NCBI GenBank assembly: GCA_049968235.1
Contig: JBMFRC010000007.1
Span: forward strand, 32,001 to 96,000
DNA length: 64,000 nucleotides
Direction of reading: 5' to 3'
DNA from: Candidatus Hydrogenedens sp.
GTDB taxonomy: Bacteria; Hydrogenedentota; Hydrogenedentia; Hydrogenedentales; Hydrogenedentaceae
The notes under the pieces are model-generated. The model worked only from the letters and a program-made list of their open reading frames with translations, made no database searches and was not told where the DNA came from. Below are positions 44,067 through 44,207 of the stretch, piece after piece. Both the position numbers and the translations under genes were made by a program. Position 1 is the stretch's first letter, and each line of letters begins with the position of its first letter.

Positions 44067-44089
44067 AAAAATACCTCTAAAATTTAAAA

Positions 44090-44123
44090 ATAGCACATAG
44101 CGGAATTTTACGCTATGTGCTAT
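44090..44123 (-). terminator. hairpin copy 1 (13-bp perfect stem, 8-nt loop) with a downstream T-run on the minus strand
   Basis: 'atagcacatagcg gaatttta cgctatgtgctat', followed on the minus strand by TTTTAAATTTT, which runs into the GH5 RBS. Confidence 0.5.
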
Positions 44124-44155
44124 CTTGATGAATGATATTAATTCAATTTTAAAAA

Positions 44156-44189
44156 ATAGCACATAGCGGAATTTTACGCTATGTGCTAT
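44156..44189 (-). terminator. hairpin copy 2 (identical to copy 1), putative rho-independent terminator of the small-peptide operon
   Basis: Identical 34-nt palindrome 18 nt downstream of the peptide-2 stop, followed on the minus strand by TTTTTAAAATT. Confidence 0.55.
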
Positions 44190-44207
44190 CTATAAACTTT
44201 TGAATAA

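What the first reader, a model, noticed from the sequence alone, without database searches (positions are those of the whole stretch)
44087..44190. Two identical approx. 39-bp copies of a perfect 13-bp-stem palindrome between the peptide pair and the RBS of the Tat-GH5 gene
Seen directly. 'aaaaatagcacatagcggaattttacgctatgtgctatc' occurs at 44087..44125 and again, identical, at 44152..44190, with a 26-bp spacer. Each copy forms a perfect 13-bp stem with an 8-nt loop. On the minus strand each is followed by a T-rich run, so together they look like a double intrinsic terminator for the peptide operon. However, the T-run of the downstream copy runs straight into the GAGGT RBS of the GH5 gene, whose ATG is only about 23 nt away, and this leaves no room for an independent GH5 promoter. 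The GH5 gene must therefore either be transcribed by read-through of these hairpins (conditional antitermination, as in BglG/LicT-type control of glycoside-utilisation genes) or the palindromes must serve another role, such as tandem operator sites for a dimeric regulator or a duplicated REP/MITE-like element. I found this palindrome nowhere else in the 64 kb.
Basis: partly seen in the sequence, partly recalled or inferred. Interest (0 to 1): 0.5.

Follow-up and report, generated by a model that had tools for sequence, protein, structure and literature searches.

The report
Duplicated terminator hairpin before GH5 gene
The two identical palindromes are most likely one ordinary transcription-terminator hairpin that sits between a small-peptide gene pair and a glycoside hydrolase gene in Candidatus Hydrogenedens bacteria and has been copied once in this species; this is an ordinary feature, not a new kind of element.

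Summary
A 40-nt stretch occurs twice, 66 bp apart (44086-44125 and 44152-44191). Each copy holds a perfect 13-bp stem with an 8-nt loop, the longest perfect hairpin in the 64 kb.

The window comes from a Candidatus Hydrogenedens MAG. Eight other lineages carry the same peptide1-peptide2-GH5 arrangement. All have one hairpin or a weak one at this position, never two.

In the four lineages with a homologous stem, it changes by compensatory substitutions and by G·U wobbles that pair only on the gene-sense strand. It is followed by a T-run on that strand only. This points to an RNA hairpin acting as an intrinsic terminator or attenuator, not a DNA operator.

No further copy exists in the window, relatives' loci, phages, plasmids or viral contigs, so REP/MITE is not supported. 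No antiterminator protein, competing RNA fold or conserved GH5 promoter was found.

Best reading: an internal, probably leaky terminator that sets high peptide and low GH5 expression, locally duplicated in this species. GH5 transcription by read-through is inferred, not shown. Novelty and interest are low.

The parts
44572..44600 (-). Sigma-70-type promoter of the peptide genes: TTGAGT, 17 nt, TATAAT
   Evidence: It scores 10/12 in the scan. The same promoter, with a perfect -10, sits at the same distance in L015 and L017, and a strong promoter is found in L020 and L024. Function is inferred.
44504..44530 (-). Conserved hairpin in the 5' leader of the peptide mRNA (ATATAACTCC-7 nt-GGGGTTATAT)
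   Evidence: Found. It is conserved in L015 and L017, with a change from a G·U to an A-U pair (read directly). Its role is inferred, probably as a 5' stabiliser.
44357..44467 (-). Peptide 1 gene (36 aa), with a strong SD (AAAGGAG)
   Evidence: It is conserved in orthologous loci and is a paralogue of peptide 2.
44208..44330 (-). Peptide 2 gene (40 aa), SD GGAGGG, stop TAA at 44210..44208
   Evidence: It belongs to an orphan family of 15 clusters; the only source-given name is Candidatus Hydrogenedens sp.
44156..44189 (-). Hairpin A: 13-bp perfect stem with an 8-nt loop, starting 18 nt after the peptide 2 stop codon
   Evidence: -22.4 kcal/mol, z -7.1. Its upstream flank, AAAAGTTTATA, matches the flank of the single hairpin in orthologues.
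44151..44155 (-). U-tract after hairpin A (UUUUU, then AAAA)
   Evidence: Read directly from the sequence.
44124..44150 (-). Spacer between the copies. It has no significant similarity to either flank. It holds a weak -35-like hexamer, TTCATC.
   Evidence: alignment p = 0.3-0.5; TTCATC, 16 nt, TAAAAT; 8/12.
44090..44123 (-). Hairpin B: identical 13-bp stem and 8-nt loop, 84 nt after the stop codon and 23 nt before the GH5 ATG
   Evidence: listed as terminator-like, 16 pairs with A·U/G·U extensions; -23.0 kcal/mol, z -7.9.
44086..44089 (-). U-tract after hairpin B (UUUU, then AAAUUUU)
   Evidence: Read directly. The downstream flank, TTTAAATTTTA(A/G)AGG, matches that of the single hairpin in L015 and L030.
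44073..44077 (-). GH5 ribosome-binding site GAGGT
   Evidence: Read directly.
42951..44066 (-). GH5 (cellulase family) gene, 371 aa, with an N-terminal twin-arginine motif (MERRTFL)
   Evidence: Pfam PF00150, E = 5e-28. Orthologues start at the same place with an RRxFL motif. The 403-aa GTG ORF reaching 44162 is a spurious extension.

Best explanation
The palindrome is an RNA stem-loop followed by a short U-tract. It is made in the transcript that starts at the promoter upstream of the two small-peptide genes (minus strand). I read it as an intrinsic (Rho-independent) terminator placed inside a conserved peptide1-peptide2-GH5 gene string.

Most transcripts would stop here, giving a short, hairpin-capped, abundant peptide mRNA. 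A minority would read through and provide the only evident transcription of the GH5 gene, whose RBS starts 13 nt after the stem.

Relatives have one such hairpin. In this species a roughly 40-nt segment (hairpin plus U-tract) has been duplicated locally with a 66-bp period, giving two identical terminators in series.

The first hairpin lies 18 nt from the stop codon, a distance at which terminating ribosomes can interfere with terminators in E. coli. The second lies 84 nt away and should be ribosome-independent. The expected net effect is tighter termination and lower GH5 read-through than in relatives.

Shown: the structure, its strand-specific conservation, its single-copy ancestry and its uniqueness. 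Inferred: that termination occurs, its efficiency, read-through into GH5, and any selective value of the second copy.
For: (1) Anatomy. The stem is 13 bp, the loop 8 nt, the energy -22 to -23 kcal/mol, and 5 of the next 8 nt are U. This lies inside the TransTermHP criteria quoted in PMC12207403. The hairpin is within 80 nt of the stop codon, as for nearly all the predicted intrinsic termination sites in PMC8355165.

(2) Position is conserved. In 7 of 9 distinct lineages a strong hairpin plus T-run lies between the peptide 2 stop and the GH5 start: the window, L030, L015/16, L017, L025-29, L020-23/L035-37 and L024. Stem sequences are unrelated in the distant lineages, as is usual for terminators.

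(3) Covariation. Across the homologous stems (two window copies, L030, L015, L017, L025), 97.4% of cells pair and 3 pairs change on both sides. Only 2 of 500 shuffles reach the covariation score, and sliding the register destroys pairing.

(4) Strand specificity. All six cells that differ from the commonest pair on one side only are G·U on the gene-sense strand. The sense fold is stronger than the antisense fold: L015 -25.2 vs -17.3 and L017 -20.6 vs -15.5 kcal/mol. The T-run exists only on the sense strand.

(5) No competing fold. At transcript lengths ending at either U-tract, the local hairpins have pair probability of about 0.97-0.99.

(6) Promoters. Where the region upstream of peptide 1 was scanned, it holds a strong promoter (9-12/12, a perfect -10 in five of the six loci). 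Between peptide 2 and GH5 the best match is 8/12 or less and is not positionally conserved (one 10/12 match in L031 lies inside the peptide 2 coding sequence).

(7) The duplication is derived. Copy A keeps the ancestral upstream flank and copy B the ancestral downstream flank. The nearest relative (L030, peptide 2 90% identical) has one copy.

(8) Precedent. Internal terminators after a highly expressed first gene set stoichiometry in operons (PMC9045158). Those terminators have long stems and U-poor tracts, as here. Pairs of adjacent hairpins at termination sites are common (PMC8355165). A terminator 17-18 nt from a stop codon had an efficiency of 0.12-0.8 in E. coli, against about 0.9 beyond 30 nt (PMC4824070).
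Against: There are no transcript data, so termination, its efficiency and read-through are all inferred.

The U-tracts are short and interrupted (UUUUUAAA, UUUUAAAU), so efficiency could be low.

Two lineages (L018/19 and L031-34) have only a weak hairpin and no clear T-run, so a strong terminator is not obligatory at this position.

Two strong terminators in series sit awkwardly with a well-formed GH5 RBS and a conserved start codon if read-through is the only source of GH5 mRNA.

Nothing is known about termination in Hydrogenedentes. Terminator-like sites in the window are barely above shuffled expectation (55 found vs about 38 expected over 60 kb). Clear canonical examples do exist, for example at 52233-52260.
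Confidence: 0.72

Rival explanations
1. The hairpins are an RNA stability or processing element rather than a terminator. They block 3'-to-5' exonucleases after processing of a long peptide-GH5 transcript, or, in the long-range A5'-B3'/A3'-B5' fold, offer a double-stranded substrate for an RNase III-type enzyme. Either way, peptide and GH5 mRNA levels are uncoupled after transcription.
For: The stems are very stable. The peptide mRNA is bracketed by a 5' leader hairpin and these 3' hairpins. With downstream sequence included, the long-range fold is slightly more stable than two local hairpins: -52.8 vs -49.3 kcal/mol. This role is compatible with, and often combined with, termination (PMC9045158).
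Against: A conserved T-run immediately 3' of the stem in most lineages is the mark of termination and is not needed for an exonuclease barrier. The long-range fold has probability of 0.01 or less in transcripts ending at the U-tract. It cannot exist in the single-hairpin relatives.
Confidence: 0.1
2. The hairpins are a conditional (factor-dependent) antitermination site. A protein or small RNA made under particular conditions, such as substrate availability, prevents hairpin formation and switches GH5 on, in the manner of BglG/LicT.
For: GH5 lies directly behind the hairpins with no evident promoter. The downstream gene is a glycoside hydrolase. The arrangement is conserved.
Against: There is no CAT_RBD/PRD protein, or any other recognisable RNA-binding antiterminator, among about 46 proteins of the window. 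There is no RAT-like alternative structure overlapping the 5' arm. Stem sequences differ completely between lineages (L020, L024 vs the window), which a sequence-specific RNA-binding factor would not tolerate. No Rfam family passes threshold.
Confidence: 0.06
3. The insertion created an independent GH5 promoter. Its -35 (TTCATC) lies in the new spacer and its -10 (TAAAAT) in the loop of hairpin B. Transcripts would start inside the 3' arm of B, lack the hairpin and escape termination.
For: The match TTCATC, 16 nt, TAAAAT lies 38 nt upstream of the ATG. It would explain how GH5 stays expressed behind two terminators.
Against: It scores only 8/12, below the scan's reporting threshold, and such matches are at background frequency in this 36% GC DNA. 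There is no TG extension. The single-hairpin relatives have no equivalent site and still carry GH5 directly behind the hairpin.
Confidence: 0.06
4. The palindromes are tandem DNA operator sites for a dimeric transcription factor.
For: Each copy has perfect dyad symmetry, and there are two copies 66 bp apart, about 6.3 helical turns.
Against: Orthologues have one copy only. Their arms are not symmetric at the DNA level: ATAGCACATGGTG vs ATAGCACACGGCG in L015. All one-sided differences are G·U-compatible on the sense strand. The stem sequence is not conserved in the more distant lineages, although the hairpin is. No HTH regulator is adjacent. The site overlaps no recognisable promoter.
Confidence: 0.03
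5. The palindrome is a REP/MITE-like mobile or dispersed repeat that happened to land here twice.
For: There are two identical copies of a palindromic unit separated by unrelated spacer DNA.
Against: There is no other copy in the 64 kb or in the fetched loci of relatives. The genome-collection scan gave 11 single hits in unrelated taxa, about chance level, and the metagenome scan gave 1 unrelated hit. Viral contigs, plasmids and phages gave none. No transposase or RAYT is in the window. Relatives carry a gradually diverging single copy at the orthologous site, which indicates vertical descent.
Confidence: 0.03

Closest known systems
Internal (intra-operon) intrinsic terminators that set gene stoichiometry, e.g. 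stem-loops after substrate-binding-protein genes of ABC importer operons in Ruminiclostridium cellulolyticum (PMC9045158)
   Same: A stem-loop with a long stem and a comparatively U-poor tract sits directly after a highly expressed first gene or genes. The next gene follows with no promoter of its own. High-upstream, low-downstream expression is expected.
   Different: Here nothing has been measured. The upstream genes are two orphan 36-40-aa peptides and the downstream gene is a Tat-signal GH5. The hairpin is present as two identical tandem copies in one species.
Tandem or clustered hairpin terminators (double-adjacent hairpins at intrinsic termination sites, PMC8355165; rrnB T1-T2-type double terminators, from my own knowledge)
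   Same: Two hairpin terminators lie in series on the same strand downstream of one stop codon.
   Different: In the paper, clustered hairpins are less than 15 nt apart and have different sequences. Here the two are 32 nt apart and sequence-identical, i.e. a recent local duplication and not two independent hairpins. A gene follows immediately.
BglG/LicT-type RAT-terminator attenuators of glycoside-utilisation genes
   Same: A terminator hairpin lies directly upstream of a glycoside hydrolase gene.
   Different: No RAT element, no alternative fold and no CAT-PRD antiterminator gene were found. The hairpin follows translated peptide genes and not an untranslated leader.
REP / BIME palindromic units in intercistronic regions (e.g. 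malE-malF), from my own knowledge
   Same: A palindromic unit lies between cistrons and can stabilise upstream mRNA and lower downstream expression.
   Different: REPs are dispersed in tens to hundreds of copies per genome. This palindrome is confined to one locus and is orthologous across species.

Membership tests
Intrinsic (Rho-independent) terminator | A stable stem-loop within canonical size limits (stem >=4 bp, loop 3-13 nt, total <=59 nt; criteria quoted in PMC12207403) | tested here: met
   The stem is 13 bp and perfect (15-16 bp with A·U/G·U extensions), the loop 8 nt, the total 34 nt, the energy -22 to -23 kcal/mol and z about -7 to -8.
Intrinsic (Rho-independent) terminator | A U-rich tract immediately 3' of the stem on the transcribed strand | tested here: met
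   Copy A has UUUUUAAA and copy B UUUUAAAU, 5 of 8 U in each. The tracts are short and interrupted. None exists on the opposite strand. Orthologues have 3-6 U.
Intrinsic (Rho-independent) terminator | Located shortly downstream of a stop codon, in the sense orientation of the upstream gene | tested here: met
   Hairpin A starts 18 nt and hairpin B 84 nt after the peptide 2 TAA. The single hairpin of relatives starts 14-24 nt after the stop.
Intrinsic (Rho-independent) terminator | The RNA structure, not the sequence, is maintained in evolution | tested here: met
   97.4% of cells pair, 3 pairs have double changes, and G·U intermediates occur on the sense strand only. Sense folds are stronger than antisense folds. 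Unrelated stems sit at the same position in L020, L024 and L035.
Intrinsic (Rho-independent) terminator | Transcript 3' ends at the U-tract in vivo or in vitro | not testable with these tools
   No transcriptome data are available for this uncultured organism.
BglG/LicT (CAT-PRD) antitermination system | A RAT RNA element or alternative structure overlapping the 5' arm of the terminator | tested here: not met
   No competing fold was found: the local hairpin probability is 0.97-0.99 in nascent-length transcripts. No other complement of the arm lies upstream.
BglG/LicT (CAT-PRD) antitermination system | A CAT_RBD + PRD antiterminator protein encoded in the locus | tested here: not met
   Pfam scans of about 46 window proteins gave no PF03123 or PF00874 hit. 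A gene elsewhere in the genome cannot be excluded.
REP / MITE-like dispersed palindromic repeat | Many dispersed copies in the genome | tested here: not met
   Only the two adjacent copies exist in 64 kb. Relatives' loci have none apart from the orthologous site. The rest of the genome was not available, so this test is partial.
REP / MITE-like dispersed palindromic repeat | An associated transposase (RAYT/TnpA) or copies in other replicons | tested here: not met
   No transposase is in the window. Viral contigs, plasmids and phages gave no match. Public genomes and metagenomes gave only chance-level single hits.
Palindromic operator of a dimeric DNA-binding regulator | DNA dyad symmetry and half-site sequence conserved among orthologous loci | tested here: not met
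   The arms differ at 1-2 positions per orthologue, in the G·U-compatible direction only. The sequence is not conserved in L020, L024 or L018.
Palindromic operator of a dimeric DNA-binding regulator | Overlap with a promoter, and a cognate regulator gene nearby | tested here: not met
   The best promoter-like match is 8/12. No HTH regulator was detected among the ORFs of at least 120 aa scanned across the window.
Rfam families (trpB motif RF04312; MIR7526 RF04214) | A score at or above the family's gathering threshold | tested here: not met
   trpB scores 32.7 bits against 59, and matches both strands equally. MIR7526 scores 35.9 against 110. These are generic long-hairpin matches.

The most novel reading that the evidence does not exclude
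The peptide1-peptide2-hairpin-GH5 string may be a dedicated, lineage-specific expression module of Candidatus Hydrogenedens. In it, the hairpin is a translation-sensitive attenuator: a ribosome terminating 14-24 nt upstream modulates hairpin folding, coupling GH5 (and downstream gene) expression to synthesis of two abundant orphan peptides. The perfectly identical second copy in this species would then be maintained by selection or gene conversion, either to re-tune that coupling or to supply a new GH5 promoter, and would not be a neutral recent duplication.
Probability: 0.1. Interest if true: 0.4.

Novelty: new member of a known kind. Interest (0 to 1): 0.15.

Why it matters
It matters little beyond annotation. 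It fixes the true GH5 start at ATG 44066, not the 403-aa ORF that runs over the hairpin. It defines a likely transcription unit boundary or attenuator in an uncultured phylum for which no termination signals have been described. It also shows that the more exotic readings (operator, mobile repeat, BglG-type switch) are not needed. The more interesting object is next to it: a conserved, strongly expressed-looking pair of orphan peptides always linked to a Tat-secreted GH5.

Tried and rejected
- Exact-pattern scans for the palindrome. Genome contigs gave 11 single hits in unrelated taxa (Chryseobacterium, Halomonas, Paenibacillus and others), about what chance predicts for a 10-bp stem, and none was tandem. 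Metagenome contigs gave 1 unrelated hit, L014, with the same 12-bp arms, a different loop and higher-GC surroundings, judged to be chance. Viral contigs gave 0. The window's own species was not found in genome contigs, so genome-wide copy number could not be measured.
- blastn of the 141-nt intergenic region against plasmids and phages gave no match.
- Rfam gave only sub-threshold generic hairpin matches.
- Looking up the GH5 protein by exact sequence found nothing. The epimerase and peptide 2 look-ups found two MAG contigs that were 100% identical and therefore uninformative.
- I tested whether the spacer between the copies is a diverged copy of either flank, i.e. a decayed 66-bp tandem duplication. 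The result was not significant (p = 0.3-0.5), so the origin of the spacer stays open.
- I considered a CRISPR-like repeat-spacer-repeat. I rejected it because no cas genes are present, relatives have a single copy, and a T-run follows each copy.
- Pfam, NCBIfam, PHROGs and PDB searches with the peptides gave no meaningful hit.

Full report
**Observation.** The repeat is real. The repeat finder gives a 43-nt direct repeat at 44083-44125 and 44149-44191, with one flank mismatch and a period of 66. The identical core is 40 nt: 44086-44125 and 44152-44191. Each copy contains ATAGCACATAGCG, 8 nt, then CGCTATGTGCTAT, at 44090-44123 and 44156-44189. The 13-mer occurs nowhere else in the window with up to 2 mismatches. 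With up to 3 mismatches nothing else forms a palindrome. Everything else in the description holds. The 13-bp perfect stem is the longest in the 64 kb. In 30 Markov-simulated windows the longest perfect stem was 12 or shorter, and 11 or shorter in all but one. Each hairpin folds at -22 to -23 kcal/mol, z about -7 to -8. Two other MAG assemblies (GCA_049971155.1 and GCA_049969095.1) carry the identical duplicated region, so it is not an assembly artefact.

**Context.** The window is from a Candidatus Hydrogenedens MAG; the name was given by the source to the 100%-identical GH5 cluster P0001. The minus strand reads as follows:
- a sigma-70-type promoter, TTGAGT-17-TATAAT, at 44600..44572
- a leader hairpin at 44530..44504
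- peptide 1 (36 aa, 44467..44357)
- peptide 2 (40 aa, 44330..44208)
- 18 nt, then hairpin A, then UUUUU
- a 32-nt stem-to-stem gap, then hairpin B, then UUUU AAAUUUU
- GAGGT, then ATG 44066 of a 371-aa GH5 with an RRTFL twin-arginine motif
- an NAD-dependent epimerase gene and a GT2 gene.

The 403-aa GTG ORF that overlaps hairpin B is a spurious extension. All orthologues start at the RRxFL-bearing methionine (or, in L020 and L035, a GTG start) right after the SD.

**Comparative evidence.** Exact-protein look-ups with GH5 and peptide 2 homologues gave eight further distinct lineages with the same peptide1-peptide2-GH5 order. None has two hairpins.

Four lineages have a stem homologous to the window's:
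- L030: ATAGCACATAGTGG / CCGCTGTGTGCTAT
- L015/16: ATAGCACATGGTG / CGCCGTGTGCTAT
- L017: AGCACATGGTGG / CCACTATGTGCT
- L025-29: TGGCACATTGTG / CACGATGTGCCA

Each is followed by 3-6 T and then, 20-25 nt later, the GH5 start. Three more distant lineages (L020-23, L035-37 and L024) have an unrelated but equally strong stem plus T-run at the same position. Two lineages (L018/19 and L031-34) have only a weak hairpin.

On the alignment of the six homologous sequences, 97.4% of cells pair and three pairs show changes on both sides (A-U to G-C, C-G to U-A). Only 2 of 500 column shuffles reach the covariation score, and sliding the 3' partner by 1-3 columns collapses pairing to 15-54%. All six cells that differ from the commonest pair on one side only are G·U on the gene-sense strand; on the other strand they would be A·C mismatches. 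Accordingly the sense RNA folds better than the antisense: L015 -25.2 vs -17.3 and L017 -20.6 vs -15.5 kcal/mol. Selection therefore acts on an RNA hairpin in the peptide/GH5 transcript, not on a DNA dyad.

**The duplication.** Copy A keeps the ancestral upstream flank (AAAAGTTTATA). Copy B keeps the ancestral downstream flank (TTTAAATTTTA.AGG). The window species has therefore gained one extra hairpin plus U-tract and about 23 nt of spacer. The spacer has no significant similarity to either flank, so I cannot say whether this was a 66-bp tandem duplication followed by decay or a more complex event.

**Mechanism.** The anatomy meets the canonical criteria for an intrinsic terminator (PMC12207403) and lies within 80 nt of a stop codon, as almost all the predicted intrinsic termination sites do (PMC8355165). 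In transcripts ending at either U-tract, the local hairpins have pair probabilities of 0.97-0.99 and no alternative fold competes. The long-range A5'-B3' fold seen in the MFE of the longer RNA appears only when downstream sequence is present.

In the six loci where the region upstream of peptide 1 was scanned, it scores 9-12/12 as a promoter, with a perfect TATAAT in five. Between peptide 2 and GH5 nothing exceeds 8/12 and nothing is positionally conserved. The one higher match, 10/12 in L031, lies inside the peptide 2 coding sequence.

The simplest model is therefore an internal, partly leaky terminator. Most transcripts end after the peptides and a fraction continues into GH5. This arrangement is documented for ABC-importer operons in cellulolytic clostridia, where internal terminators likewise have long stems and U-poor tracts (PMC9045158).

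Hairpin A, like the single hairpin of relatives, starts only 14-24 nt from the stop codon. In E. coli a terminator 17-18 nt from a stop had an efficiency anywhere between 0.12 and 0.8, against about 0.9 beyond 30 nt, because terminating ribosomes interfere (PMC4824070). Copy B, 84 nt from the stop, would be free of that effect. This gives a plausible but untested reason why a second copy tightens termination. Termination itself, its efficiency and read-through into GH5 are all inferences.

**Rivals.**
- A BglG/LicT-like switch is not supported. No CAT/PRD protein is among about 46 window proteins, there is no RAT-like alternative fold, and the stem sequence is not conserved across lineages.
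- Operator sites are contradicted by the strand-specific G·U pattern, by the single copy in relatives, and by the absence of a neighbouring regulator or an overlapped promoter.
- REP/MITE is contradicted by locus-restricted, vertically inherited occurrence and by empty or chance-level searches. The complete genome could not be scanned.
- A role as an mRNA 3' stabiliser or processing site is compatible with termination and cannot be separated from it here.
- A weak promoter-like match, with TTCATC in the spacer and TAAAAT in loop B (8/12), is noted as a low-probability way for GH5 to escape the double terminator.
- Rfam matches (MIR7526, trpB motif) are far below the gathering scores and are symmetric on both strands.

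**Verdict.** The element is an ordinary intrinsic-terminator-type hairpin, conserved at this position in Candidatus Hydrogenedens and tandemly duplicated in one species. It is a new member of a known kind, and interest is low (0.15). The neighbouring orphan peptide pair is the more unusual feature of the locus. It comprises 15 clusters; the only source-given name is Candidatus Hydrogenedens sp. It has no family or structure hit.

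Noticed in passing
window 44208-44467 (-); also L015, L017, L018, L020, L024, L025, L030, L031, L035: Two paralogous small hydrophobic, slightly acidic peptides (36 and 40 aa; C-terminus LTGKEPVD conserved in peptide 2) form an orphan family of only 15 clusters; the only source-given name is Candidatus Hydrogenedens sp. 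They have no Pfam, NCBIfam or PDB hit and only weak unknown-function PHROGs hits. Each has a strong SD, and a Tat-signal GH5 gene always follows directly. Function is unknown.
   Followed up: partly
window 44504-44530 (-) and 44572-44600 (-): A promoter (TTGAGT-17-TATAAT) and a 10-bp leader hairpin lie upstream of peptide 1. Both are conserved in L015 and L017, and the hairpin shows a change from a G·U to an A-U pair. Together with the 3' hairpins, they bracket a short mRNA.
   Followed up: partly
window 42951-44162 (-): The mechanical ORF list gives a 403-aa GTG ORF that runs across hairpin B. The real GH5 start is ATG 44066 (MERRTFL), as in all orthologues. An annotation using the long ORF would hide the intergenic hairpins.
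   Followed up: yes
window 52233-52260: A perfect 11-bp palindrome, AAAGCCCACTC-6 nt-GAGTGGGCTTT, with an A-run on one side and a T-run on the other, lies between convergent genes (50821..52218 + and the Fe/Mn superoxide dismutase 52284..53000 -). It is a textbook bidirectional terminator and shows that this organism uses canonical intrinsic terminators.
   Followed up: no
window 54712-54735 (-): A 10-bp hairpin (GTAGTGCATC-TAAG-GATGCACTAT) followed by TTTTT lies about 80 nt upstream of the start of the MFS transporter gene (53216..54634, -), in a divergent intergenic region. It may be a 5' attenuator or leader terminator.
   Followed up: no
L018/L019 5910-6000 and L031-L034 4124-4219: Two Hydrogenedens lineages have a longer peptide 2-GH5 spacer (91-96 nt) with only a weak hairpin and no clear T-run. 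The strong terminator is therefore not universal in this gene string.
   Followed up: partly
L014 159-193 (metagenome contig AXCI01003110.1): An unrelated, higher-GC contig carries a hairpin with the same 12-13-nt arms (ATAGCACATAGCG-TTTTTTCAA-CGCTATGTGCTAA) in a terminator-like position. I judged it a coincidence given the number of hairpins in the collection.
   Followed up: partly
window 40953-42789 (-) vs L018, L020, L025, L031 downstream of GH5: The genes after GH5 differ between lineages. The window, L015 and L017 have an NAD-dependent epimerase plus a GT2 glycosyltransferase. The other lineages have large proteins (about 650-860 aa, most of 800 or more) with no Pfam hit or only faint hits. 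Only the peptides-GH5 core is conserved, together with the divergent 657-aa GH and the NAD synthase genes in most lineages.
   Followed up: no
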